Virus genome (UHGV): UHGV-0248979
From: a virus
Direction: 5' to 3' (one strand)
Length of the DNA stretch: 64,000 bases
A program made the position numbers and the translations under genes. Below, piece by piece: positions 29,653-56,777 of this stretch (positions are counted from its first letter, which is position 1; every line of letters begins with the position of its first letter). The notes under the pieces were generated by a model. That model made no database searches. It was not told the origin of the DNA and was given only the letters and a program-made list of their open reading frames with translations.

Positions 29653-30319
29653 ATGATAAGTCTTAAAAACATACGCGACAGATTAGTAACGGCGGAGGGA
29701 TATATCACCACCGCTAATGCAAACAACTATATTGCAAACCAAGGAACGGTTTCCTCAACCAACAATCTCGCAGGATTACCTTTAAGTCATTATAATTGTA
29801 ATGGCGGATGTAGTTGGTCGTGCAGCGGTAGCTGTAGTAAGGGGGCGGGGGGGGGTAAGTAAGCCCTCTAGCGGTGGTTCTACGCCAACCCCTTCAAGAC
29901 CAACCTACGACAACAAAGCCGTTGTTTATGTTGAGTCTAAGCTACACGCTAAAGATACTGTTCGTATCAATTTCTCTACTGGGGCTGTCTTTATTCAATG
30001 CGTAACGTTAACCGGTAGAGAGAAACCGATAAGGGTCTTTAAATCGTTACTGTCTGGAAAGTCCTACGCCTACCCTCAAGTTGCAATGGGTAATGGTATC
30101 ACTGTTAATTTTACAGACGCGGCTAGTTTTAAGATAGACTCTATCGGTAATGCATCTTCTGCTTCTATCTCATTAGAAGTATTAAGTAATTCCGGCGGAA
30201 GCATGGCGATTAAGCAGCAACCGAGTAAATCAAACGGCTTTACTGCAGAATTTGAAGTTACCGGCAGGCAATGGCGTGGCGGGTTCTATACCTTGAACGT
30301 CAGATTGACCGTAAAATAA
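29653..30319 (+). CDS. Cys-motif protein 3 with C-terminal domain, reading frame interrupted at a G9 tract
   Basis: ORF 29653..29862 (leader KNIRDRL, core NCNGGCSWSCSGSCS) stops 2 codons after G9 tract 29847..29855; the +1 frame continues to 30319 without its own plausible start; one fewer G fuses them. Confidence 0.4.
29847..29855 (+). repeat. G9 homopolymer tract (preceded by GGGGGC)
   Basis: Direct read of sequence; coincides with frame break. Confidence 0.9.
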
Positions 30320-35290: not shown

Positions 35291-35320
35291 ATCGGGGGAG
35301 GTTACCACCCCCCCCCGAAT
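35291..35320 (-). terminator. putative hairpin/terminator containing C9 tract
   Basis: TCGGGGG...CCCCCGA pairing around a 9-nt homopolymer, followed on minus strand by TATTTCTTT. Confidence 0.3.
35308..35316. repeat. C9 homopolymer tract (intergenic)
   Basis: Direct read. Confidence 0.9.
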
Positions 35321-35323
35321 CAA

Positions 35324-35854
35324 TTACTCTTTAGGCGCTGGTGCGGTGAAGCCATCCAGTTCACCTTCCAAACCGCTCAGTGCTACTTTCTCAATAGCCG
35401 GAGGAGTAACTTTATACGTTGCAACAGTACCTGGCAGGAACTTCAGGTGTCCAGTCACAACAGTTACTACGTAAATGGTTTTGCCTTCTTCTTCACGGGA
35501 AATAGTTTGCAGGTCGTTTTCACCGAACTCGTCATCGGTGTACCCCTTCTCAACCATGGCTGCGTTAACTTTTGCCAGGATTTTCGTTGGTGAATCGAAA
35601 TCGGTAGTAGGTGCAGTTACTTCAACTTCACCAACGATGTCGCAGGAAAGACGAGTATAGTGGAATTCTTTCTCGCCTTTGAAGTTCTGGCTTTCTGCCT
35701 TGGCGGTCAGAGTAATTTTAGTGTTGCGGCCAGCTTCTCCGGTGAAGTCAGCGACAGCACTAAAGTCAACATCAGCTACGGTGAGAGCGGAGCTCAGAGA
35801 GCTGTTTTTAGTGTTAATAAGTTCGATAAGCTGCTGTTGAAAAGTTTTAGCCAT
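35324..35854 (-). CDS. hypothetical protein, small paralog family A
   Basis: Start moved to ATG 35854 (GAGGT RBS); MAKTFQQQLIELINTKN aligns with the 34726 gene's N-terminus. Confidence 0.55.
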   Translation of the reverse strand: MAKTFQQQLIELINTKNSSLSSALTVADVDFSAVADFTGEAGRNTKITLTAKAESQNFKGEKEFHYTRLSCDIVGEVEVTAPTTDFDSPTKILAKVNAAMVEKGYTDDEFGENDLQTISREEEGKTIYVVTVVTGHLKFLPGTVATYKVTPPAIEKVALSGLEGELDGFTAPAPKE

Positions 35855-35994
35855 TGTTTTTACCTCGTAAGTAGTATGGGTGGTTTGCATAGTATTGTTC
35901 GGATTATAGAAGTGGTGTTAATAGTTATGACAGGCGGCAGAAGGGTTGCTTGTAAAATTAATTAACTTTAACTTTTTTATAAAAGGTGAAAAGT

Positions 35995-36477
35995 ATGATA
36001 AAACGTTTTCTTATTGTTATGGTTGGTGTTTTTTCATTGGCAGGATGTGCCTTACAACCGAATGGTGACGGCCAATTCTCGACTGTGCCGGTGGAGCCAC
36101 ATGATATGGTTATTTACACCTGTATGGGTGCAGAGCAAGATTTTGCAAATTACAAACCTGTCGTCAGCTCGACTAATATAATGTTAGGGTCAGTAACTGT
36201 ACTCGATACTGGTGCTAACTGGGTAGCCACTTGGCCAAACGGCAAGATTGAGTCGCCGCAACTTTATAAAGATTTATTAGGTAAAGTTAATGGGAATATT
36301 GATCCTATCACAGGACAACGTTACTATCGTGTAAATGGCTTACTTTCAAAAACGCCAACGTTTGCGTATTCTACTTTAGAATATAAAACGGGTGATGGTA
36401 AAGGCATTACTTTCTTCCACTGTAAAGAAGGTGTAGCGTCTGACACTGGAACAATGCTCCATCCTGCGGAACAATAA
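35995..36477 (+). CDS. lipoprotein (lipobox LAGC)
   Basis: MIKRFLIVMVGVFSLAGC signal with lipobox; AGGTGA RBS; lone plus-strand gene among minus-strand genes, terminator downstream. Confidence 0.6.
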   Translation: MIKRFLIVMVGVFSLAGCALQPNGDGQFSTVPVEPHDMVIYTCMGAEQDFANYKPVVSSTNIMLGSVTVLDTGANWVATWPNGKIESPQLYKDLLGKVNGNIDPITGQRYYRVNGLLSKTPTFAYSTLEYKTGDGKGITFFHCKEGVASDTGTMLHPAEQ

Positions 36478-47350: not shown

Positions 47351-47393
47351 AAAAAATATAAAAACCGTAGGATGGACTTAGTCCATCCTACGG
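47351..47393 (-). terminator. rho-independent terminator
   Basis: CCGTAGGATGGACT/AGTCCATCCTACGG hairpin plus T-tract on minus strand after tail spike gene. Confidence 0.6.
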
Positions 47394-47399
47394 TTTAAA

Positions 47400-49520
47400 T
47401 TAAATAACTACCCAGCTTTTACCATCGGAACCAATCTGCATTAGCGTAATACTTTCACTGGTATCAATGGGTTTGGCAAGACCTTCTGTCCCACTCTTTG
47501 GAGTGATGAGAACGTTTGAATTTTCCGGTTTAACGGTGATCTTACCAGCCTTATTTGCCACGATCTGAATATTTCTGCCCACGCTATATTCTAGATCAGG
47601 AATAGTAAGTTGGCCGCCACGGTTGGTGGGTGGGAAATACACATAAGACGACACATCTTCCTCAGATAACACTATGCTACCAGAATCACGATTGACCGAG
47701 ATCTCAAACTTAGAAATATCGATATCATAGGCAGTAACTTTCGTAATATCCGTCAGAACCAATTCGTTCAAATCGGTCTTAGCTGGACTGTTCGCCAGAT
47801 CAAATGGAGTACCATTCGTACCGTCCAGCACAGGTGTGACTGTGGTTTTATTGGCACCAGGATAAATGATTTCAAGCGTATGCCAGTTATTATCGTACGC
47901 ACCAAAAGTTCCTAATTTCGCATTTTGCTTTTTATGATGCATCAGATTAAGATTCGTAGCGTCGGTCTGTAAGAAAAAAGACATTAGGTACGGGTTCGTC
48001 TCAGCCACACCAGCGTCAGCAAATGTAGTACCAGAAGGTAGGTCGGACGCGGAAATACGCCAATAAAGTCCTAATCCGAAACGATCTGCTGCTAAATCAC
48101 CTTTTAGTCTAAAAGTAACGGTCAGACGTCCACCGTAACGTATCATGTCCGCAGCAGATGTCATTGACTTAGTTACATTCCAAGGTTTCATCTTTACAGC
48201 CTTTCTTAATTCGACGAAATGCCCGTTTCCATCCTCAGAATCTTGCACGGTTACGTTACAATCAACGATATTGTTCCAACCTTGCCCTTTCAGGGAACCA
48301 TCCCCACGACGTCCGTTATAACCCACAGACTCTACTAATGGGGTATAGCTTCTTACCACATTCTTATTGTCTTTGGAGCTCTTAGTGTCGTTCTTCGTCA
48401 GGAACATTGCACCAATCGCTGTTCTTGATAATATCTCGGCAGCTATTCTCTCTGAGATAATACCGCGTCGTGCCCAAGAACTGAAATGGCTATTCCTTGT
48501 TTCAGACGTCCAGTTTTTAACAGTACGGGAGGCAGCACCGTAATAGGCCGCACCAGTGATATCAGGATCGTCAGTGGGATCATTAGTCGGTACACGTTGG
48601 CCATTATCGTCGTACATGAATGGAACAAAAAAGATATTTTTTTGTTCATTGTTACGATAATTACCGTATACGGTTTCATATTGGGCAGGATATTTTTCCT
48701 TCCAATAATAGGTAGTGTCCCCGCAGATCCATGGTACTTCGGCGGTGTCGTACTCGGGCATCTGAGAGAGATGGTCAGAGAGATCAGTTCGGAAACGCTC
48801 TACCATTGCGTTAAATAACGCTGGTTGTTGTGCGTATTGTACTTTAGTCAGATCATACTCTCCCTGCATCCACACTACAGCCAAGAGTTTATTTTTAGGA
48901 TTAACTTCTAGAGCTTTTTTGGTCCGGCTAACTAAATCTTTATAAAGCGGTTTCTCCACCCCCCATAGCATTGACGACTCAGTGGCTCCTGTGGCTTCAT
49001 CGAAGGTACCTTCTGCACCACCCGTGAAAGCAGAACCGCCGCGTGCGCAGGGTACTAGTAAGATACCGGCGTTCTTAGGAATATACGGGAGAAGACGCTT
49101 CGCGATATGTAGACCTTGACCCACACATCCGTATTCACCTTTGCTCAAATTGGCATTGGGATGCGAGTATTTGGACATATCTTGCACGTCGTGCAGACAG
49201 TGATCCGCTGGAATGACGTCGTTATATTTACAATCAGCCCCATTAGGCGTTACCTTCGCACGGCGCGCCATCTGTTTAATTCGCGGATCGGGAGCGTCCA
49301 ACGTCGCCGGTAGAGGCAACCCTTCACCATAACTCATCGCATTAGATTGCCCGGCTATAGGAATCACGAAGTAATACTCCGGCTCCGTCGTGCCCTGAAG
49401 TTTTGCAATATCAATTTTATATTCTTTTTCTTCCTTAGAAAGAAGAACTAACGCACCTTTGAGATCGCCAGAGAAATTGTCGAGTTCATGGATACGTTTC
49501 TTTCCAATTGGCTGACTCAT
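47400..49520 (-). CDS. tail spike/fiber protein with SASA/SGNH-type carbohydrate esterase-like domain
   Basis: N-terminal 40 aa paralogous to the 1479-aa fiber N-terminus; IAGQSNAMSYGEG motif typical of sialate O-acetylesterase-like esterases; GGAGAG RBS. Confidence 0.6.
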   Translation of the reverse strand: MSQPIGKKRIHELDNFSGDLKGALVLLSKEEKEYKIDIAKLQGTTEPEYYFVIPIAGQSNAMSYGEGLPLPATLDAPDPRIKQMARRAKVTPNGADCKYNDVIPADHCLHDVQDMSKYSHPNANLSKGEYGCVGQGLHIAKRLLPYIPKNAGILLVPCARGGSAFTGGAEGTFDEATGATESSMLWGVEKPLYKDLVSRTKKALEVNPKNKLLAVVWMQGEYDLTKVQYAQQPALFNAMVERFRTDLSDHLSQMPEYDTAEVPWICGDTTYYWKEKYPAQYETVYGNYRNNEQKNIFFVPFMYDDNGQRVPTNDPTDDPDITGAAYYGAASRTVKNWTSETRNSHFSSWARRGIISERIAAEILSRTAIGAMFLTKNDTKSSKDNKNVVRSYTPLVESVGYNGRRGDGSLKGQGWNNIVDCNVTVQDSEDGNGHFVELRKAVKMKPWNVTKSMTSAADMIRYGGRLTVTFRLKGDLAADRFGLGLYWRISASDLPSGTTFADAGVAETNPYLMSFFLQTDATNLNLMHHKKQNAKLGTFGAYDNNWHTLEIIYPGANKTTVTPVLDGTNGTPFDLANSPAKTDLNELVLTDITKVTAYDIDISKFEISVNRDSGSIVLSEEDVSSYVYFPPTNRGGQLTIPDLEYSVGRNIQIVANKAGKITVKPENSNVLITPKSGTEGLAKPIDTSESITLMQIGSDGKSWVVI

Positions 49521-49523
49521 CTA

Positions 49524-50036
49524 CTACTCTCCAAAAGTTAAGATTTTATTGTCAAACGTCAACACGACAGAATCATCACCGATGCCACACGGTGTTTCAT
49601 CTGGGCCGAAAACCACCACGGAGAACTGTCCTTTATAAGCGATGGAATTCGGAGCGATGCTAAGCGTTACCGCGTCTTTACCTACCGTGAACGACTGGTC
49701 GGTTAAATCGTCGGTTTGTAAGTTAGCACCACAAACGGCATTGACGGATTCGATAAGATCGTGTGCATTAAACCCTTCACCTCTTACTTTTACCAGAATA
49801 GGTTGTTGGTTTAACCACCGCTCTGCGGTTAAACGGTTGTAGTAGATTTGCAACGTTCTGTTTCCAGGACGTTTAATCTTTACAATGGCAGTGGAGTCAC
49901 GATCCATTTCATCACTGGTTTTTACGTCACTGACTTCAACCTCGTTCTCTTGCAAGTCAAGTTGGAGGTCATGGTTAACCAGTGAAATAACCATGTTAAG
50001 TGAAGTTAGTGATAAATCTGGTGTGAATTTTTCCAC
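49524..50036 (-). CDS. fiber-associated small protein, family B (GTG start)
   Basis: AGGAGG RBS then GTG; paralog of 56128..56688; immediately upstream of tail spike gene. Confidence 0.5.
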   Translation of the reverse strand: MEKFTPDLSLTSLNMVISLVNHDLQLDLQENEVEVSDVKTSDEMDRDSTAIVKIKRPGNRTLQIYYNRLTAERWLNQQPILVKVRGEGFNAHDLIESVNAVCGANLQTDDLTDQSFTVGKDAVTLSIAPNSIAYKGQFSVVVFGPDETPCGIGDDSVVLTFDNKILTFGE

Positions 50037-50090: not shown

Positions 50091-50100
50091 CCCCCCCCCC
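50091..50100. repeat. C10 homopolymer tract (intergenic)
   Basis: Direct read. Confidence 0.9.
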
Positions 50101-50134: not shown

Positions 50135-50642
50135 TTAGCTAATTCTCAAATCACGCAGTGCGCCTGTCGATTTCATCACGTTTTGGAACGCAGCGCTGAT
50201 GTTATTAGTCCAGTAATAATGCTGTCCGTTAATAACCTGCTGATAGGCCAGCGCGCAGGTGTTACCACCTAAATTTACGGTAATGTTAGAGGCTCTGCCT
50301 CCTTGTAAGTAAACCGCTAAAGTAGGCTTTGCGTTGGCAACTATCGTCGTTAACTGTAACTCAATACCTACTAAAGTTCCCACCCCGCAGTTACCCGCGT
50401 TTTGAATGGTTCCCTGATTTTTCTGGTTTAACGGCCAGCTTGGTCCTACTGCGCCCCATTTCTTACCTAAAGAATCGCTATATGCAGCGGTTGCAATTTT
50501 ACAGCCCATAGATCGTCCCACCATTTGACTCATCATAAAAGGTCTACCCAATCCTAATTTACTACCAGCAGCGCTCATCCATTGTTCGCCCGTTTCGTTC
50601 TTGGCCGAAGAACCGACCCACGAACCGGTTACCCCCCCCCAT
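50135..50642 (-). CDS. family C small protein, N-terminus interrupted by G9 tract
   Basis: ORF track gives 50135..50578; upstream frame encodes GVTGSWVGSSAKNETGEQW matching paralog 50896..51441 N-terminus, but ATG at 50642 is out of frame across C9 tract 50632..50640. Confidence 0.45.
50632..50640. repeat. C9 homopolymer tract (G9 in gene sense) immediately after a start codon
   Basis: Direct read; paralog has G5 at the equivalent position. Confidence 0.9.
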
Positions 50643-50654
50643 CGCGATCTCCTG

Positions 50655-50885
50655 TTAAGATTTTCTACATGTTATTGAATCGAAAGCACCACGCCCAACC
50701 CAACGCCAATTATAATGATGATCAGCTTTATAAAGTGTGTATCTGCCCTGCTTTTTTACGTCGAAAATATTGATCGTAGTCTCTTCATTACCCAGCTTAG
50801 CTGTGCCGTAACATACAGGTTCGGGTAGTTGTTGACATCCACTTACTGTAAGCAATGCGAAACCCAGTAAAACTTTTCTTAACAT
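50655..50885 (-). CDS. small lipoprotein (76 aa)
   Basis: MLRKVLLGFALLTVSGC signal with lipobox-like VSGC; AAGGA RBS; embedded in receptor-binding module. Confidence 0.55.
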   Translation of the reverse strand: MLRKVLLGFALLTVSGCQQLPEPVCYGTAKLGNEETTINIFDVKKQGRYTLYKADHHYNWRWVGRGAFDSITCRKS

Positions 50886-50895
50886 CTTTCTGTCC

Positions 50896-51441
50896 TTAGA
50901 CTACACTTATTGAAATTGTTGCACCGTTCTGATTAAATAACCAGTTGGTTGCCGTCTTAGCCTCATAGCGCCGGACGCCGTTACTGTAGGAGTACGGTAG
51001 AAAAGTAATCTTCGTTCCGTTAAACGAAAGCGTAATATTCTGATTTGGTCCATTGGTTAGGGCCATGTAGATAATACCAGTATTTTGTACTTGGCTAAGA
51101 TGTGTGACGCTACAACCCAAGATCGAACCTGACACCGAACCGGCCGCATTTTGTGTTTGCACACGATTCGATACTGTAGAACCAGCACCCGTTGTTGTAG
51201 AGTTGTTCGAATACCCCCCATACGTATTTGTAATAGGAACCCACTGCGTGTTCGTAGCCTGCACCAAAACAACATAGGTTGATCGGCCTACAACGAGTTT
51301 AAGATCCTCTACGCTACGCCCGACCATCTGCGACATGTTAAATGGCGTGCTCAGTTTAAGCTTATTACCTGCCACACTCATCCACTCCTGACCGGTTACT
51401 GCCTTTGCTGAGCTTCCAACCCAGCCGGATGCTACCCCCAT
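50896..51441 (-). CDS. family C small protein (181 aa)
   Basis: GGAGGA RBS; paralog of 50135 gene. Confidence 0.55.
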   Translation of the reverse strand: MGVASGWVGSSAKAVTGQEWMSVAGNKLKLSTPFNMSQMVGRSVEDLKLVVGRSTYVVLVQATNTQWVPITNTYGGYSNNSTTTGAGSTVSNRVQTQNAAGSVSGSILGCSVTHLSQVQNTGIIYMALTNGPNQNITLSFNGTKITFLPYSYSNGVRRYEAKTATNWLFNQNGATISISVV

Positions 51442-51482: not shown

Positions 51483-54400
51483 TTAATTCCCCTTGAGTTC
51501 TTTAAGCTCTTGGCGAAGAGTTTTCATGCCTTCTACTAACAACGCAATAACACCATTGTAATTTAGACGTAAACGTTTTTCGCCTGAAATGGCATCGTCG
51601 TCCTCGGACACAAGTTCAGGTAACGCTTCTAATGCGTCCTGAGCAATTAGACCTACAGAAGTCTGCCAACCGTCATCAGGATGCTGAATTTCGTACAAAT
51701 AACCGGTTAGTAACTCTAACCGATCCAAAGCTTTATCCAGCTTCACCAGATTACGTTTGTTACGACGGTCAGAACGAATCTGTACGTCGTTAAACGAACC
51801 GTTACCGTTGCCAGTAACGTTATGTCCAAAGTTTACTTGGCCGTTAGAATTATTAAAAGACAACGGGCGTAATCCGTTCCAGGAACCCGCTGCGGCTTGT
51901 CCGGCGTCGGTTACTAAGAAATAGGTATTGGCACCGTCGTTACGTAAAATAAAACCGTAGGTACCGTAAGCGATTCGAAAATCAGGGTATTTAGTGGCCA
52001 ATTTACCATTAACGGTTAAATCACCGCCTACAGTACCGCCCCCTGACGGTAACGCGCCCACTTCCGCAGCAGTTGGCTTGTTTCTCGTATTGTAAGCACG
52101 ACGCCAGCCTGGTGAGTATCCATCGCCGTTAAATACGTAGATAAACTCCGCATTAGTGAGTGCTCCGCCGACGCTCGTCGTTGTGGCGGTCGTTATACGG
52201 ATCGTGTAGTTGTTTGTGCTGTTGCCGTTACTAATGACTTCTATAACGGCCCCAGCTAACGGAATGACACCACAACCCGTCTCGCTGTGAGGTATGGACG
52301 CACTGGCGGCATAAGCCCACGCACAGCGAGCAACCCACGATCTTGTGGTAAATGCGCCGTTATTTTTCAATAACGTCACTAGCTGTGCTGTAGTTATTGC
52401 ACCGCCATTAGCGCCAGTTTCTAACCAACCACTAGGTGATGCCGGACAACCTATTTCGGCTGGCCCTAACGCTATATTTCTAGTGCCATCAAACGCAATA
52501 CCATTGATGGTTCTTGCGGTTTGCAACTTTGTTGCCGTGGCTGCGTTTCCGGTGGTCGACTGATTCCCTGTTTGGTTTACTCCAGGTAAACTGATGTCTT
52601 TAGTACCATCAAAAGCTACGCCACCTATATTTCGAGCAGTCTGTAGCTTAGTCGCTGTCGCCGCATTCCCCGTAGTCGATTGGTTACCGGTTTGGTTTAC
52701 ACCAGGAAGATTAACGTCTTTTGTCCCATCGAACACCACACCGCCGATCTTACGTGCGGTTTGTAACTTAGTAGCGGTCGCTGCATTACCTGTCGTATTC
52801 TGGTTGCCTTGCTGGTTAACGCCCGGTAAATTGATATCACCTGTACCGTCAAAGCTAACGCCTCCGATCCTGCGAGCGGTTTTCAGTTTCGTCGCGGTAG
52901 CGGCGTTGCCGGTAGTATCCTGATTACCTGTGGCATTTACACCAGGAATGCTATCACGGGCAGTATAAACTTGTGCCCAATCTGACCACGGCGCATCAGC
53001 AGTATCACGTCGACTACGAATATAAACGGGTGCGTGCGCACCGCTCGTCCCCGACCATCCGATTAACAGTTCCCCTTCGCCTAGCGCAGCAGAACCGCCC
53101 AAATGCAGTAAGTTACCATAAGCGGTTGGATAACCGTTATTGTAAACTTCGTACATCTGAATACCGGGTGTACCTTTGTTTGATCCAGTCAGTGCAGTAA
53201 CACGTCCACGTCCTACCAACGTGTTGATATTGATGTCTCTAGACCCATCAAATTTCACACCGTTGATGTTTCGAGCCGTTTGTAATTTGGTTGCGGTTCC
53301 CGCGTTCCCAGAGGTGTTTTGATTACCCTGTTGGTTTACACCAGGGAGGCTAATGTCTCCGCTACCGTCGAAACTTACACCGCCGATTAAACGGGCTGTT
53401 TTCAGTTTCGTTGCCGTAGCAGCATTGCCTGTTAACTCACCTGATAACCCTTTTGCAAAGGTCTGTTTTTCTGCCCACGTATGCGCTGCATTCAATACGG
53501 GCATCTGGCGGCTAGTAATAGTACGTTTACCCTTTTCACCAGCGACGCGAACAGCAAAGAAGCGATAGTTAGCAGTAGACACTGTACCACGCCAGACCAA
53601 CATACTCCGGCCAGTACCGGTGTCCTCCGACGCCCCTACAAGAATAGTAACCAAGTTACCGTCGATAACACCCCAATCCATTCCCGCAGGAATGTTTTTC
53701 ATGGTATTCAATGGTGTACTTATCATCTGGCCAGGAACGAAGTCGAAGGTTTGCCAGTCTAACGGATCTACCTTAGCAGCAACCCCACCGATCCCTAAAG
53801 CCAACGGGAGTGAATAGGATGTGAAAATCTCTCGCCATTCGCTCCAGGCATTTCCTGTACGAATTCGTTGGAACTTGCGACCTTTCGAAGTTGCGCCTGT
53901 ACCGTATGTGGTATAATTTTGTTCAACACCTGAACCGTCTAAGCGTAAGGTAACTTCGCAAACGCCTAGCAAGGTTGCGCCAGCAGAGTCTGTTAACGGA
54001 CCGTCTGTAGCCTCGCCGGTAACACTAAAGCGACCCGGTTTAGTTAAGTCGTTAAAGCTACCCTTATAGTAGGCACCGTCTACCTGATACCCAACCTGAA
54101 TCCAATCTTCCCACTGCGGATTAGACGAATCCCAAGTCGCAGTCAAACCACGGACATACATCGTACCACGACGAGTGGTGTAACGTTGTAAACGTCCATA
54201 AAGACCGCCTTCCATGACTTCTAATACGCCTTGCGCATTACCGCCCTCTTCAGGATAATGTCTGTCGAACACCGCTAACGAACTGGACGAGTTACGCCAG
54301 TTACCCATGTGCTCAGCGCCGCCTAAGGAGTTCAGATCGATCGATGTAGATAACGGGCGTACACCTGTAGTTACCATTCTCCACGGTGACCACGGGCCAT

Positions 54401-55922
54401 TAGTTCCGTTCCACGCGGCTGACAACATGCGGTTGTACACGTTACCATTACGGCAGGTAAAACGTTGCGCTCCACTGTAGTTGCCCGCTTTATACACTTC
54501 TAGATAACCTACCGCACCGTCTTCCGGGAAGTGTTTTGCTATTGATGCGTTTGTTGATGTCGACTTGGACCATGTTCCTGTGTAATTGGCATCTGGAGCA
54601 AATGTGTTAATATCAGCATCTGCGGGCATTTCACCACGGAAACGCAGATAGGTATCAGGAGATAGACCAATATTGCGAGCAAAGGTTTCTTTATTGGGGA
54701 TATCAGCACCGTTAGAGTTTTTCTGTAACGCAGAGTTCGCTTTATCTACAGTGGCTTTTAATCCCAAGAAATTGATGATATCCGCAGTTGTCCCTTTTGC
54801 TAACAAGGTTCTGGCGGTTTCTGTAAAGTCAGTTAACCCGACTTTATTAGTGCCAGTGAAATAAGGGAGCTTGTTTGCTGCGGTTGTGACTGCGGCAATA
54901 GCAGTAAGTAGTGGACTGATAGGTTGCTTCTGTGCAAGTTTCTCAGTAATCGTTGTTGCGAAGTTAGGGTCATTACCTAACGCCGTAGCTAATTCCGCTA
55001 AGGTATCTAACGTCTCAGGTGAAGAACCAACCAATTCCGCGATAGCAGCACGCACCCAGGCCGTTGTGGAGATGCTCGTGTCGTTCGAGTCCTTTGGGGG
55101 CGTTGGTGATGTCGGGTTACCCGTAAAATTCGGCGAATGTTTATCGGCTTTTAACTGTAATTCGTCGTTCAGCTGTTTAACCGTGGACGGTGTGGCAGCC
55201 TCCGTCACGGATTCGCTAGTCAGGGTATTGTTAAGTTTAACGATACCTTTACCGGTCGTACTAGCGTCAACTAAACCCTGTGCAGCGATTTTCTCCGCAC
55301 GCAGAGCGGCTGACTCCGAGCGTGTAGCTGCGCCTTCTGAGCTTTCTTTATCTTTCGTAACCTGCGCAGCAACCTTCTCCACCGCGCCCTTACTGGCCTC
55401 AATTGAAGCCGCAGTATTTGCGATACTGGTAGCGGTCTGTTGAACCTGTCCGGCCCGTTGCGTAACCGTTTCTGCTTTCTTAGTTACATCAGCCGCTACA
55501 GCTGTCACAGATTGTTCGCTTGCGGCGACAGCTTGAGCCTTCTCATTTACTGATTGTGAAACAGTATCTACGGCAGTTTTTGCTGCTAAAACTTCAGCGT
55601 GTTTTTTGTTAACCTCCGCAGTTTTAGTGGCGACGGTTCCCGCTTGCTCATTAACTGTGGAAGCTAAAGTGGTGGTCTGTTGCTTCGCTGTTTCTGCTAA
55701 ATCTTTAGCTTTCGTAGCTTCTGTTGCGGACTGTTGTGATTTGGCCGCAGCCGTTTGTGCATCAGCAACCGCACTTCTGACGGTGTCAATGTCCGCAACG
55801 ATCTCGCGGACTGGTAACTTATAATCTTTTTCGTCTTTCGAAAAAAGTAAAACGCCTTCACCGATATCCCCGGTGTACGGATGTAAGTCGTGTAAACGTA
55901 TTTTCTTTACCGCTTTAGCCAT
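51483..55922 (-). CDS. side tail fiber protein with C-terminal intramolecular chaperone (peptidase S74-like) domain
   Basis: Ala/Thr-rich coiled-coil N-terminal region, six 40-aa repeats GNAATATKLQTAR.IGGV.FDG, C-terminus SDRRNKRN...VGLIAQDALEALPELVSED matching the endosialidase/T5-type chaperone domain. Confidence 0.75.
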   Translation of the reverse strand: MAKAVKKIRLHDLHPYTGDIGEGVLLFSKDEKDYKLPVREIVADIDTVRSAVADAQTAAAKSQQSATEATKAKDLAETAKQQTTTLASTVNEQAGTVATKTAEVNKKHAEVLAAKTAVDTVSQSVNEKAQAVAASEQSVTAVAADVTKKAETVTQRAGQVQQTATSIANTAASIEASKGAVEKVAAQVTKDKESSEGAATRSESAALRAEKIAAQGLVDASTTGKGIVKLNNTLTSESVTEAATPSTVKQLNDELQLKADKHSPNFTGNPTSPTPPKDSNDTSISTTAWVRAAIAELVGSSPETLDTLAELATALGNDPNFATTITEKLAQKQPISPLLTAIAAVTTAANKLPYFTGTNKVGLTDFTETARTLLAKGTTADIINFLGLKATVDKANSALQKNSNGADIPNKETFARNIGLSPDTYLRFRGEMPADADINTFAPDANYTGTWSKSTSTNASIAKHFPEDGAVGYLEVYKAGNYSGAQRFTCRNGNVYNRMLSAAWNGTNGPWSPWRMVTTGVRPLSTSIDLNSLGGAEHMGNWRNSSSSLAVFDRHYPEEGGNAQGVLEVMEGGLYGRLQRYTTRRGTMYVRGLTATWDSSNPQWEDWIQVGYQVDGAYYKGSFNDLTKPGRFSVTGEATDGPLTDSAGATLLGVCEVTLRLDGSGVEQNYTTYGTGATSKGRKFQRIRTGNAWSEWREIFTSYSLPLALGIGGVAAKVDPLDWQTFDFVPGQMISTPLNTMKNIPAGMDWGVIDGNLVTILVGASEDTGTGRSMLVWRGTVSTANYRFFAVRVAGEKGKRTITSRQMPVLNAAHTWAEKQTFAKGLSGELTGNAATATKLKTARLIGGVSFDGSGDISLPGVNQQGNQNTSGNAGTATKLQTARNINGVKFDGSRDININTLVGRGRVTALTGSNKGTPGIQMYEVYNNGYPTAYGNLLHLGGSAALGEGELLIGWSGTSGAHAPVYIRSRRDTADAPWSDWAQVYTARDSIPGVNATGNQDTTGNAATATKLKTARRIGGVSFDGTGDINLPGVNQQGNQNTTGNAATATKLQTARKIGGVVFDGTKDVNLPGVNQTGNQSTTGNAATATKLQTARNIGGVAFDGTKDISLPGVNQTGNQSTTGNAATATKLQTARTINGIAFDGTRNIALGPAEIGCPASPSGWLETGANGGAITTAQLVTLLKNNGAFTTRSWVARCAWAYAASASIPHSETGCGVIPLAGAVIEVISNGNSTNNYTIRITTATTTSVGGALTNAEFIYVFNGDGYSPGWRRAYNTRNKPTAAEVGALPSGGGTVGGDLTVNGKLATKYPDFRIAYGTYGFILRNDGANTYFLVTDAGQAAAGSWNGLRPLSFNNSNGQVNFGHNVTGNGNGSFNDVQIRSDRRNKRNLVKLDKALDRLELLTGYLYEIQHPDDGWQTSVGLIAQDALEALPELVSEDDDAISGEKRLRLNYNGVIALLVEGMKTLRQELKELKGN
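52480..53450 (-). repeat. in-frame tandem repeats (about 120 nt unit, six copies in two blocks) inside the tail fiber gene
   Basis: Repeated peptide NQ.GNQ.T.GNAATATKLQTAR.I.GV.FDG..DI.LPGV; explains the spurious plus-strand ORFs here. Confidence 0.7.
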
Positions 55923-56127: not shown

Positions 56128-56688
56128 TCATGTAGCCGGGTTTTCTTCAGCGGAGTCTCCATCTGGAACCTCAAATGTAAGAACAGCATCGTCACCAATA
56201 CAGAAGATTGCATCTTCTTCGTTTGCTAATGCCCGTTCAGTTTTATCAAATAACGTCACCATAAACGCATTCACCCACGCTGGAGAATCGTCAGCAACGT
56301 TGACAGCAATAGGATCGTTACCTAAAGTGATATCTGAAGCATGTAAATCCTCGGGTTGTAAGTTCGTTCCGCAGAATTCATTTACAACACCTAAAATGTC
56401 ACGAAGGTTGTCTTCGGTACCATCTAACGAAATCAAAATAGGTTCGGACGCTAACACTTTGTCCGCATCCAAGCGGTCGTAATAAACAACTACAGAAGCA
56501 CCATCAGGTTTCCTGATTTTTGTAATCTCTGTCAGTGTGTTACGACGCGACGTAGTCGGGGACAGGTTTGCCATAGTGTTGCTAATACGAATTTCGCTTA
56601 GAGACAACCGTGAACCGTTATCGTGGTTGATTAAAGCGACCACCAATTCGGCTGAGGACAGACTTAAATCAGGTACGTATGTGGCCAC
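56128..56688 (-). CDS. fiber-associated small protein, family B (GTG start)
   Basis: GGGAGG RBS then GTG at 56688; ORF-track N-terminal extension is translation of the terminator T-tract; paralog of 49524 gene. Confidence 0.5.
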   Translation of the reverse strand: MATYVPDLSLSSAELVVALINHDNGSRLSLSEIRISNTMANLSPTTSRRNTLTEITKIRKPDGASVVVYYDRLDADKVLASEPILISLDGTEDNLRDILGVVNEFCGTNLQPEDLHASDITLGNDPIAVNVADDSPAWVNAFMVTLFDKTERALANEEDAIFCIGDDAVLTFEVPDGDSAEENPAT

Positions 56689-56703
56689 TATAGCCTCCCA
56701 GAT

Positions 56704-56750
56704 CAAAAAAAAAATAAAAAACATCTACCGCCCATAGAATCGGGCGGTAG
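56704..56750 (-). terminator. rho-independent terminator
   Basis: CTACCGCCC-ATAGAAT-CGGGCGGTAG hairpin plus T-tract on minus strand. Confidence 0.6.
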
Positions 56751-56777
56751 ACAGTCATTTTACAGCTAAATATCAAA

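What the first reader, a model, noticed from the sequence alone, without database searches (positions are those of the whole stretch)
50655..50885. 76-aa lipoprotein embedded between receptor-binding module genes
Similar in size and location to receptor-blocking lipoproteins encoded next to receptor-binding proteins in T5-like phages; flanked by family C paralogs, one of which has the G-tract switch.
Basis: inference. Interest (0 to 1): 0.5.

Follow-up and report, generated by a model that had tools for sequence, protein, structure and literature searches.

The report
Cor receptor-blocking lipoprotein in jumbo phage
The 76-residue ORF is a real member of the known Cor family of phage lipoproteins, which switch off the bacterial FhuA receptor; the protein is ordinary, but it sits in an unusual place, between two alternative tail-fibre tip adhesins of a ~225 kb jumbo phage.

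Summary
Window 50655..50885 (-) encodes a 76-aa protein with a lipoprotein signal peptide (lipobox VSG|C17). It lies 10 nt after one tail-fibre tip adhesin gene and 12 nt before a second one, whose start carries a variable G-tract.

The protein is a Cor-family exclusion lipoprotein:
- NCBIfam NF047972 scores 69 bits against a cutoff of 31; PHROG_1119 gives E=1e-25.
- It is 40-44% identical to the phi80, HK022 and N15 Cor proteins and 61% identical to Stx2 phage 86 Cor.

The phage is not T5-like. It is an uncultured ~225 kb jumbo phage.

Two things are unusual:
- 73 of the 80 closest IMG/VR Cor loci have the N15 gp22/gp23-like gene pair just upstream. Here Cor instead follows a 181-aa Gp38_N adhesin, as in Stx2 phage 86.
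- Among related jumbo phages, Cor is present only where that adhesin type is present.

The target receptor (FhuA by homology) and whether the phage itself uses it are not shown. Verdict: a new member of a known kind, of modest interest.

The parts
50655..50885 (-). cor gene: 76-aa Cor-family exclusion lipoprotein precursor (stop codon 50655-50657)
   Evidence: ORF. PHROG_1119 E=1.3e-25. NCBIfam NF047972 scores 69 bits against a cutoff of 31. 40-61% identical to annotated Cor proteins.
50838..50885 (-). Signal peptide, residues 1-16. The lipobox V14-S15-G16-C17 spans 50835-50846, and Cys17 (50835-50837) would be the lipidated first residue of the mature 60-aa protein.
   Evidence: Read from the sequence. 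Cys17 is invariant and aligns with the lipobox Cys of phi80, N15 and HK022 Cor. The phi80 record annotates that Cys as the acylated N-terminus (H57).
50893..50897 (-). Shine-Dalgarno AAGGA for cor, overlapping the stop codon of adhesin 1
   Evidence: Read from the sequence. The gap between the two genes is only 10 nt.
50896..51441 (-). Adhesin 1: a 181-aa tail-fibre tip adhesin with an N-terminal Gp38_N attachment domain and a beta-sandwich C-terminal domain. It is the conserved upstream partner of this Cor subtype.
   Evidence: Pfam PF21721 E=2e-20 and PHROG_1121 E=7e-53. 69-72% identical to the adhesins that precede Cor in Stx2 phage 86 and in L021. AlphaFold model with pLDDT 83.6.
50135..50642 (-). 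Adhesin 2: a second Gp38_N tip adhesin, about 168 aa when in frame and 31% identical to adhesin 1. It is frameshifted in this window; only the 147-aa ORF 50135..50578 is open.
   Evidence: 63% identical to the tip adhesin of phage-plasmid CMS-2020a.
50632..50640 (-). Poly-G tract directly after, and including the G of, the adhesin-2 start codon. The number of G after the ATG is 8 here and 7, 8, 9 or 10 in ten other assemblies; the gene is in frame only at 7 or 10.
   Evidence: The gene calls of 168 and 169 aa in L003 and L007 confirm the in-frame states. Relatives have a plain ATGGGGGTA start.
51483..55922 (-). 1479-aa long tail fibre (Phage_fiber_2 repeats, Gp34_trimer, C-terminal Peptidase_S74 chaperone domain) whose tip the adhesins presumably cap
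47362..47396 (-). Strong intrinsic terminator (16-bp stem plus a T-run) that ends the fibre operon after the 706-aa SASA esterase gene
56722..56753 (-). Intrinsic terminator immediately upstream of the DUF7941a gene. It marks the upstream boundary of the transcription unit that contains cor.
50091..50100 (-). Second variable G-tract (9-11 G across assemblies) in the 98-nt spacer between adhesin 2 and the DUF7941b gene. This is context, not part of cor.
   Evidence: The tract is conserved in the related jumbo phage locus L108.

Best explanation
The ORF encodes a Cor-family phage exclusion lipoprotein.

Proposed mechanism, step by step:
- Export and anchoring (inferred from sequence rules): the precursor is exported, lipidated on Cys17 and cleaved by signal peptidase II. 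[quoted passage not shown]
- Mature protein (Cys invariance shown; the disulfide is inferred by analogy with Llp): the 60-residue small beta-barrel is clamped by a Cys25-Cys73 disulfide.
- Receptor block (inferred from homology and predicted fold): like phi80/N15/T1 Cor and T5 Llp, it binds the periplasmic face of a TonB-dependent transporter, most likely FhuA. This locks the transporter in a state that phage receptor-binding proteins cannot use.
- Expression (inferred): the gene sits inside the tail-fibre operon of a jumbo phage, with no room for its own promoter in the 10-nt gap. It is therefore probably made together with the fibres.
- Role (inferred): it would protect the infected cell from further FhuA-dependent phages and keep progeny from being wasted on cell debris.

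It travels as a two-gene cassette with the 181-aa tip adhesin just upstream. Whether that adhesin uses the receptor that Cor blocks is open.
For: - Family membership: NCBIfam equivalog NF047972 scores 69 bits against a cutoff of 31, over residues 6-75. PHROG_1119 'Cor superinfection exclusion protein' gives E=1.3e-25. tblastn identity is 61.5% to Stx2 phage 86 and POCJ13 Cor, 54% to SSU5, 44% to N15, and 40% to phi80 and HK022.
- Conserved residues: C17, C25, I40 and C73 are invariant, and P23, G27, W60, W62 and V63 nearly so, across 71 homologues.
- Cysteine pattern: mature Cys1, Cys9 and Cys57 parallel Llp's Cys1 plus the Cys11-Cys58 disulfide (10.1101/2022.06.28.497910).
[quoted passage not shown] Cor is modelled to dock at the same face (PMC13164509). 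Cor of T1 and Llp of T5 disable receptors so that progeny do not adsorb to debris (PMC11990801).
- Operon structure: 10-nt and 12-nt intergenic gaps, with terminators only at 56722-56753 and 47362-47396.
- Cassette linkage: every phage record with a full-length adhesin-1-type protein (47% identity or more) is also one of the twelve records with the closest Cor. In related jumbo phages, L021 and L022 have adhesin-1 plus Cor, while L108, L112 and L113 have neither.
Against: - No experiment: lipidation, localisation, target and exclusion are all inferred.
- This Cor is only 40% identical to the characterised proteins, so a shift to another transporter cannot be excluded. PMC13164509 reports Cor-like proteins in BtuB-dependent phages.
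- The gp22/gp23-like pair precedes Cor in 73 of the 80 closest IMG/VR loci and is the part of the cassette associated with FhuA use. It is absent from the window.
- Podophages phi296, phi315, phi367 and phi419 carry the same adhesin-Cor cassette but still lyse a fhuA Keio mutant and use BamA (PMC12502783). FhuA is therefore not an essential receptor for them.
- In L109 and L110 the Cor gene downstream of an adhesin-1-type gene has decayed, so the adhesin can do without it.
- Co-expression with late structural genes would give little time for classical early exclusion.
Confidence: 0.85

Rival explanations
1. Self-receptor masking. Adhesin 1 binds the same outer-membrane protein that Cor inactivates (FhuA or a related TonB-dependent transporter), so the pair is a matched 'key plus lock-jammer'. 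Cor then works like T5 Llp in a lytic phage: it stops superinfection by siblings and loss of progeny on debris. The phase-variable adhesin 2 gives an alternative receptor that Cor does not cover.
For: - Adhesin 1 and Cor are adjacent (10-13 nt apart where measured: window, Stx2 phage 86, L111) in the window, L021/L022, Stx2 phage 86-type phages and L111.
- The two proteins diverge in step: 72%/70%, 69%/61% and 50-53%/54-60% identity for adhesin and Cor respectively.
- Within the jumbo lineage, Cor is present only where adhesin 1 is present.
- Adhesin-2-type genes occur without Cor in CMS-2020a and L108.
Against: - Podophages with the same cassette plate on a fhuA knockout and on 53 other OMP knockouts.
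- A large receptor screen reports FhuA use only in siphoviruses (10.64898/2026.04.02.716166).
- Across the family, Cor is more tightly linked to the gp22/gp23 pair than to adhesin 1.
- The adhesin-1 model gives only generic beta-sandwich matches, so nothing points to its receptor.
- Shared descent of a single cassette could explain the co-occurrence without any functional coupling.
Confidence: 0.35
2. Heterotypic exclusion or hitch-hiker. The fibre-adhesin-Cor block was acquired from an SSU5-like or Stx-like temperate phage, in which Cor belongs to a central-fibre FhuA module (gp22/gp23/Cor). The jumbo phage lost gp22/gp23 and does not use FhuA itself. Cor is kept because it shuts out competing FhuA-dependent phages (T1-, T5- and phi80-like) during the long jumbo infection, or it is simply carried along.
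For: - The SSU5-like locus L023 has the same gene order (fibre with Gp34_trimer and S74 domains, Gp38_N adhesin, 84-aa, 202-aa, Cor, second Gp38_N adhesin). Deleting the two middle genes gives exactly the window's order.
- A 135-bp stretch of adhesin 2 is 96% identical to the E. coli phage-plasmid CMS-2020a, which shows recent exchange with that group.
- No gp22/gp23 homologue is present in the window.
- Podophages with the cassette do not need FhuA.
- A decayed Cor sits next to an intact adhesin in L109.
Against: - The identical Cor protein is on record in 158 blocks of public assemblies; in the ten ~225 kb contigs aligned here (each from a different sample) its 231 nt carry no substitution. 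These loci were selected by exact protein match, which guarantees amino-acid identity but not the absence of synonymous changes.
- Cor tracks adhesin 1 in the jumbo lineage.
- Only 64 kb of the ~225 kb genome was searched for gp22/gp23.
Confidence: 0.4
3. Cor fold with a changed target. This subtype, shared with the Stx2 phage 86 and SSU5 groups, blocks a different outer-membrane protein than FhuA.
For: - It is only 40% identical to the FhuA-validated Cor proteins.
- Cor/Llp-like lipoproteins occur in BtuB-dependent phages, and an LptD-binding exclusion factor is known from phage Rtp.
Against: - The score is well above the cutoff of the NCBI equivalog model.
- The closest subtype, in SSU5-like loci, still sits in a gp22/gp23/Cor cassette, the arrangement reported to go with FhuA use.
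Confidence: 0.15
4. It is not an exclusion protein at all, for example an Rz1-like outer-membrane spanin lipoprotein or a chance ORF.
For: It is a small outer-membrane lipoprotein, like the o-spanins. There is no Pfam hit.
Against: - Strong, full-length matches to the Cor models.
- No overlapping or adjacent i-spanin, holin or endolysin gene.
- Llp-like beta-barrel fold.
- It lies inside a fibre operon.
Confidence: 0.02

Closest known systems
Cor of phi80, N15, HK022, mEp167 and T1 (NCBIfam NF047972 'phage exclusion lipoprotein Cor'; PHROG_1119)
   Same: - Same family by curated HMM.
- Same length (76 aa against 77-78 aa).
- Same lipobox Cys, two further invariant Cys and the W-x-W-V motif.
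- Encoded just downstream of host-recognition genes.
   Different: - 40-44% identity only.
- Those phages are 37-50 kb siphoviruses in which Cor follows J, gp22 and gp23 and often has its own terminator or moron status. Here it follows a Gp38_N tip adhesin in a ~225 kb jumbo phage, with no gp22/gp23 in the window.
- It is embedded in the fibre operon.
Cor of Stx2-converting phage 86, Shigella phage POCJ13 and EHEC podophages phi296/315/367/419
   Same: - The closest annotated relatives (61.5% identity).
- Identical local order: tail fibre, 181-aa 'tail fiber adhesin' (69% identical), then Cor.
   Different: - They are temperate ~60 kb podoviruses that use BamA and do not need FhuA.
- They have a gp22/gp23-like pair about 3.5 kb downstream.
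- There is no second adhesin and no G-tract after Cor.
Cor-like protein of Salmonella phage-plasmid SSU5 and SSU5-like elements (L023)
   Same: - 54-60% identity.
- L023 has two Gp38_N adhesins flanking the Cor region, after a fibre with Gp34_trimer and S74 domains. This is the same overall layout as the window.
   Different: - Two genes, distant gp22/gp23 homologues of 84 and about 190-200 aa, lie between the first adhesin and Cor.
- It is a siphovirus with a J-type central fibre, and it is temperate.
Llp, lytic conversion lipoprotein of phage T5 (PDB 8A60 chain B, 7QJF)
   Same: - Same size and the same Cys1-lipid plus terminal-clamping disulfide pattern.
   Different: - No detectable sequence similarity: the Cor profile finds nothing in PDB sequences at E<=10, and the Foldseek E-value is 0.75.
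- Llp is paired with pb5 and is reported to be made early in infection. Here there is no pb5 and the gene lies among structural genes.

Membership tests
Cor exclusion lipoprotein (NF047972 / PHROG_1119) | Scores above the curated family HMM cutoff over the full length | tested here: met
   NF047972 scores 69 bits against a cutoff of 31, covering residues 6-75 and profile positions 6-78 of 78. PHROG_1119 gives E=1.3e-25.
Cor exclusion lipoprotein (NF047972 / PHROG_1119) | Lipoprotein signal peptide, with the lipobox Cys as the first mature residue | tested here: met
   MLRKVLLGFALLTVSG|C17. C17 is invariant in 71 homologues and aligns with the annotated acylated Cys of phi80 Cor. Actual processing was not tested.
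Cor exclusion lipoprotein (NF047972 / PHROG_1119) | Two further conserved cysteines near the mature N- and C-termini, and the conserved core motifs (PxC, NW-x-WV) | tested here: met
   C25 and C73 are invariant; P23, W60, W62 and V63 are at least 90% conserved.
Cor exclusion lipoprotein (NF047972 / PHROG_1119) | Blocks FhuA-dependent phage adsorption and FhuA transport functions | not testable with these tools
   Needs expression in a host, followed by plating and uptake assays.
Extended cor cassette (N15 gp22-like, gp23-like, Cor) associated with FhuA-using phages (PMC13164509) | The two membrane-protein genes lie immediately upstream of cor | tested here: not met
   tblastn with N15, phi80, SSU5 and L023 gp22/gp23 finds nothing credible in the 64 kb window (best E 0.049). 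In contrast, 73 of the 80 closest IMG/VR Cor loci have the pair. The rest of the ~225 kb genome was not available.
T5 Llp (lytic conversion lipoprotein) | Sequence homology to Llp | tested here: not met
   The Cor profile A3 and the single sequence, searched against all PDB sequences (which include 8A60_B and 7QJF_A), give no hit at E<=10.
T5 Llp (lytic conversion lipoprotein) | Llp fold (small beta-barrel with a disulfide clamping the termini) | tested here: met
   [not shown]
T5 Llp (lytic conversion lipoprotein) | Encoded next to a pb5-type receptor-binding protein of a T5-like siphovirus | tested here: not met
   The neighbours are Gp38_N adhesins and a gp34/gp37-like fibre. The genome is a ~225 kb jumbo phage.
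o-spanin (Rz1-like outer-membrane lipoprotein) | Paired or embedded with an i-spanin gene in a lysis cassette | tested here: not met
   No lysis genes are adjacent, and no spanin family hit appears among the PHROG or NCBIfam matches.

The most novel reading that the evidence does not exclude
A jumbo phage recognises a TonB-dependent transporter (FhuA) through a small Gp38_N-type tip adhesin and carries the matching Cor 'receptor jammer' right behind it. A second tip adhesin immediately downstream, switched on and off by a hypermutable poly-G tract at its start codon, gives a fraction of progeny an alternative receptor that Cor does not mask. The locus would then be a combined self-exclusion and bet-hedging host-range module. 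FhuA use would be extended beyond siphoviruses, and a portable adhesin-Cor cassette would be shown to move between podo-, sipho- and jumbo phages.
Probability: 0.25. Interest if true: 0.6.

Novelty: new member of a known kind. Interest (0 to 1): 0.35.

Why it matters
- Practical use: Cor and Llp-type lipoproteins are the best understood way in which phages switch off their own receptor. A Cor gene is therefore a useful genomic pointer to receptor identity.
- New setting: here a Cor gene appears in a large uncultured jumbo phage. None of the 83 Cor-bearing phage records listed was longer than 103 kb.
- Testable prediction: this Cor is tied to a Gp38_N tip adhesin rather than to the usual gp22/gp23 pair. 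That predicts a jumbo phage that either uses FhuA or disables it to shut out competing FhuA-dependent phages.
- Context for the neighbouring gene: Cor is always encoded next to a phase-variable adhesin, so the alternative adhesin may let some progeny escape Cor-masked cells.
- Limit: the protein itself would be named correctly by standard annotation pipelines. The value lies in the context, not in a new mechanism.

Tried and rejected
- Pfam gave no family for the ORF.
- phmmer and a 71-sequence profile against all PDB sequences gave nothing at E<=10. Llp similarity is therefore at fold level only.
- The search for homologous proteins with the single sequence returned only the phage's own variant. 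An alignment query was needed.
- The single-protein scan of GTDB genomes found no relative. The alignment scan found only Enterobacterales prophage Cor proteins at 54% identity or less.
- Two Cor homologues on contigs longer than 200 kb (P0002, P0107) were checked as possible further jumbo phages. Both are ordinary prophages with the J-gp22-gp23-Cor order in bacterial chromosomes.
- The sigma-70 promoter scan found no more sites than in shuffled sequence (12 found against 15.6 expected). It is of doubtful relevance for a jumbo phage.
- GC content (cor 39%, adhesins and fibre 47-49%, window 44%) is too noisy for such short genes to date a transfer.
- The spanin and chance-ORF readings were rejected.
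- Literature searches found no report of the receptor of the 181-aa adhesin type, and none of Cor in jumbo phages.

Full report
**1. The observation**

The minus strand of window 50655..50885 carries an ATG-started ORF of 76 codons, MLRKVLLGFALLTVSGCQQLPEPVCYGTAKLGNEETTINIFDVKKQGRYTLYKADHHYNWRWVGRGAFDSITCRKS.

- A Shine-Dalgarno AAGGA overlaps the stop codon of the upstream gene. Only 10 nt separate the two genes, and 12 nt separate the ORF's stop from the ATG of the next gene.
- The N-terminus has the parts of a bacterial lipoprotein signal: basic residues R3 and K4, a ten-residue hydrophobic core, lipobox V-S-G-C17, and Gln rather than Asp at +2.
- A rule-based six-frame scan of the 64 kb window found only one other credible lipobox ORF, 35995..36477.
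- The two neighbours are paralogs. Both carry the Pfam Gp38_N domain and match PHROG_1121 'tail fiber adhesin', and they are the only such genes in the window.
- The downstream paralog starts at ATG 50642, which runs straight into a G-tract. With 8 G after the ATG, the gene is out of frame in this window.

**2. What the ORF is**

By sequence it is a Cor-family protein.

- It matches PHROG_1119 'Cor superinfection exclusion protein' at E=1.3e-25.
- It matches the NCBIfam equivalog model NF047972 'phage exclusion lipoprotein Cor' at 69 bits against a curated cutoff of 31, across essentially the whole protein.
- tblastn against 50,697 phage records finds 83 records, nearly all annotated Cor. Identity is 61.5% to Stx2-converting phage 86, Shigella phage POCJ13 and four EHEC podophages, 54% to Salmonella phage-plasmid SSU5, 44% to N15, and 40% to phi80 and HK022.
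- In a six-sequence alignment, the lipobox Cys17, Cys25, Cys73, P23, G27, W60, W62, V63 and F68 are invariant. In a 71-sequence alignment of database homologues, C17, C25, I40 and C73 remain invariant.

By fold it resembles T5 Llp, but not by sequence.

- Pfam has no model for the family, and no PDB sequence is detectably similar even to a family profile.
- An AlphaFold2 model built on the 71-sequence alignment is confident (pLDDT 85, above 90 for the mature core).
- Foldseek alone could not make this distinction.
- The mature cysteine pattern (Cys1, Cys9, Cys57) parallels Llp's lipid-anchored Cys1 and its Cys11-Cys58 disulfide (10.1101/2022.06.28.497910).

**3. The genome and the locus**

- The window has only short, weak DNA matches to ~240 kb Salmonella and Erwinia jumbo phages, and it encodes the paralogous 'virion structural protein' families typical of such phages.
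- The identical Cor protein is on record in 158 blocks of public assemblies. The ten best places lie on 225-226 kb contigs, each from a different metagenome sample.
- The phage is therefore an uncultured jumbo phage, not a T5-like one.
- On the minus strand, strong intrinsic terminators at 56722-56753 and 47362-47396 bracket a unit of seven genes:
  1. DUF7941 protein
  2. 1479-aa fibre (Phage_fiber_2, Gp34_trimer, Peptidase_S74)
  3. adhesin 1 (181 aa)
  4. Cor
  5. adhesin 2 (about 168 aa when in frame)
  6. DUF7941 protein
  7. 706-aa SASA-esterase fibre
- Cor has no intergenic room for a promoter of its own, so it is probably made together with the fibre proteins. This is inference.

**4. 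How this context compares with other Cor genes**

*The usual arrangement*
- IMG/VR contains 510 Cor-encoding contigs. Of the 80 closest, 73 have a gp22/gp23-type pair immediately upstream of Cor.
- This agrees with the 'extended cor cassette' that PMC13164509 associates with FhuA-using phages.
- The window has no gp22/gp23 homologue.

*The exception this locus belongs to*
- The other seven IMG/VR loci, all of the Stx2 phage 86 type, share the window's arrangement wherever their upstream flank is present: a 181-aa Gp38_N adhesin (69% identical to adhesin 1) followed directly by Cor.
- Every phage record with a full-length adhesin-1-type protein is also one of the twelve records with the closest Cor.

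*Within the jumbo lineage*
- L021 and L022, small contigs (L021 from a Salmonella Enteritidis assembly), read GP38, adhesin 1 (72% identical), Cor (70%), DUF7941.
- L108, L112 and L113 read fibre, GP38, adhesin-2-type, DUF7941. L108 is 87% identical in DNA to the window downstream of the locus. These have neither adhesin 1 nor Cor.
- Adhesin 1 and Cor therefore behave as a two-gene cassette.

*The SSU5-like relatives*
- L023 shows the order fibre, adhesin, 84-aa, 202-aa, Cor, second adhesin. The two middle genes are distant gp22/gp23 homologues.
- Deleting them gives exactly the window's layout.
- A 135-bp stretch of adhesin 2 is 96% identical to the E. coli phage-plasmid CMS-2020a, which has that adhesin type but no Cor.
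- The module was probably exchanged with that gene pool.

**5. Mechanism**

- Shown: family membership, the signal and lipobox, the conserved cysteines, the predicted Llp-like fold, and the operon position.
[quoted passage not shown] There it stabilises a state in which extracellular loops occlude the phage binding site.
- In virulent phages this is thought to stop progeny adsorbing to debris as well as to block superinfection (PMC11990801).

Which phages are excluded is unresolved.
- For self-masking: the adhesin 1-Cor linkage described above.
- Against self-masking: podophages phi296, phi315, phi367 and phi419 carry the same cassette but still lyse a Keio fhuA mutant and 53 other OMP mutants, and they use BamA (PMC12502783). 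A large receptor screen reports FhuA use only in siphoviruses. In L109 and L110, Cor has decayed next to an intact adhesin.
- I therefore weigh self-masking (about 0.35) and heterotypic exclusion or hitch-hiking (about 0.4) roughly equally, with a smaller chance (about 0.15) that this subtype has moved to another transporter.
- The adhesin-1 model is a beta-sandwich with only generic matches and gives no clue to its receptor.

**6. The neighbouring switch**

- Across the window and ten independent assemblies, the tract after the adhesin-2 ATG has 7, 8, 9 or 10 G. It is in frame only in L003 (7 G, 168 aa) and L007 (10 G, 169 aa).
- Relatives have a plain ATGGGGGTA start.
- The out-of-frame state leaves only an N-terminally truncated ORF lacking half of the Gp38_N attachment domain.
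- Adhesin 2 is thus a plausible phase-variable alternative tip, while Cor and adhesin 1 are always encoded. Read-level data are needed to exclude homopolymer assembly noise.

**7. Verdict**

- The protein is a new member of a known family that standard pipelines would name correctly.
- The unusual points are its host genome, its pairing with a Gp38_N adhesin instead of gp22/gp23, and its position next to a variable adhesin gene. No Cor-bearing phage record listed exceeds 103 kb, and none of the 80 closest IMG/VR Cor loci lies on a contig longer than 109 kb.
- Interest is modest at 0.35.

Noticed in passing
window 50632-50642 (-): The start codon of adhesin 2 runs into a poly-G tract whose length differs among 11 assemblies (7, 8, 9 or 10 G after the ATG). 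The gene is in frame in only 2 of the 11. Homologous adhesins in CMS-2020a, L108, Stx2 phage 86 and L021 start with a plain ATGGGGGTA, so the tract has expanded in this phage.
   Followed up: partly
window 50091-50100 (-); L108 7548-7558 and 1417-1426: A second G-tract (9-11 G across assemblies) lies in the spacer between adhesin 2 and the DUF7941b gene, within the motif TTGAAAATAATCGT(G)nTGAATG. It is conserved as G11 in the related jumbo locus L108, which has a further G10 just upstream of its fibre gene. It could be a length-variable promoter or leader element.
   Followed up: partly
window 29847-29855 (+): A G9 tract lies inside ORF 29801..30319 (codons 16-18, in frame here). It is another candidate slippage site.
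   Followed up: no
window 35308-35316 (-): A G9 run followed by CCCCC forms a hairpin just after the stop of ORF 35324..35890. It looks like a terminator rather than a coding switch.
   Followed up: no
window 35995-36477 (+): A second lipobox protein of 160 aa (MIKRFLIVMVGVFSLAGC...) matches PHROG_9559, a family of unknown function. It is not related to Cor.
   Followed up: partly
window 47400-49520 and 51483-55922 (-); 49524-50036 and 56128-56724 (-): Two fibre modules share a ~36-aa N-terminal motif (39% identity), and each is preceded by a DUF7941 paralog (34% identity). This suggests a repeated 'adaptor plus fibre' unit. The second fibre carries a SASA (sialate O-acetylesterase-like) domain and a DUF6645 domain.
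   Followed up: partly
L021/L022, L108, L112/L113 compared with window 50135-51441: Related jumbo phages carry different combinations of tip-adhesin genes in the same slot: T2-type GP38, adhesin 1 plus Cor, or adhesin-2-type. All share the conserved Gp38_N attachment domain. The flanking genes are 87% identical in DNA downstream of the slot and 79% in the fibre gene upstream, so the slot is a recombination hotspot.
   Followed up: partly
L109 4547-4752 and L110: In a podophage variant, the gene after an adhesin-1-type gene (65% identical) is a decayed Cor. The signal peptide and LSGCQTLPEPVC remain, followed by unrelated sequence and stop codons.
   Followed up: yes
window 50486-50620 compared with CP054387.1 36573-36707: A 135-bp stretch of 96% nucleotide identity links the jumbo phage to the E. 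coli SSU5-like phage-plasmid CMS-2020a. It lies within the Gp38_N-coding part of adhesin 2 and is the only near-identical DNA match of this region in the phage collection.
   Followed up: yes
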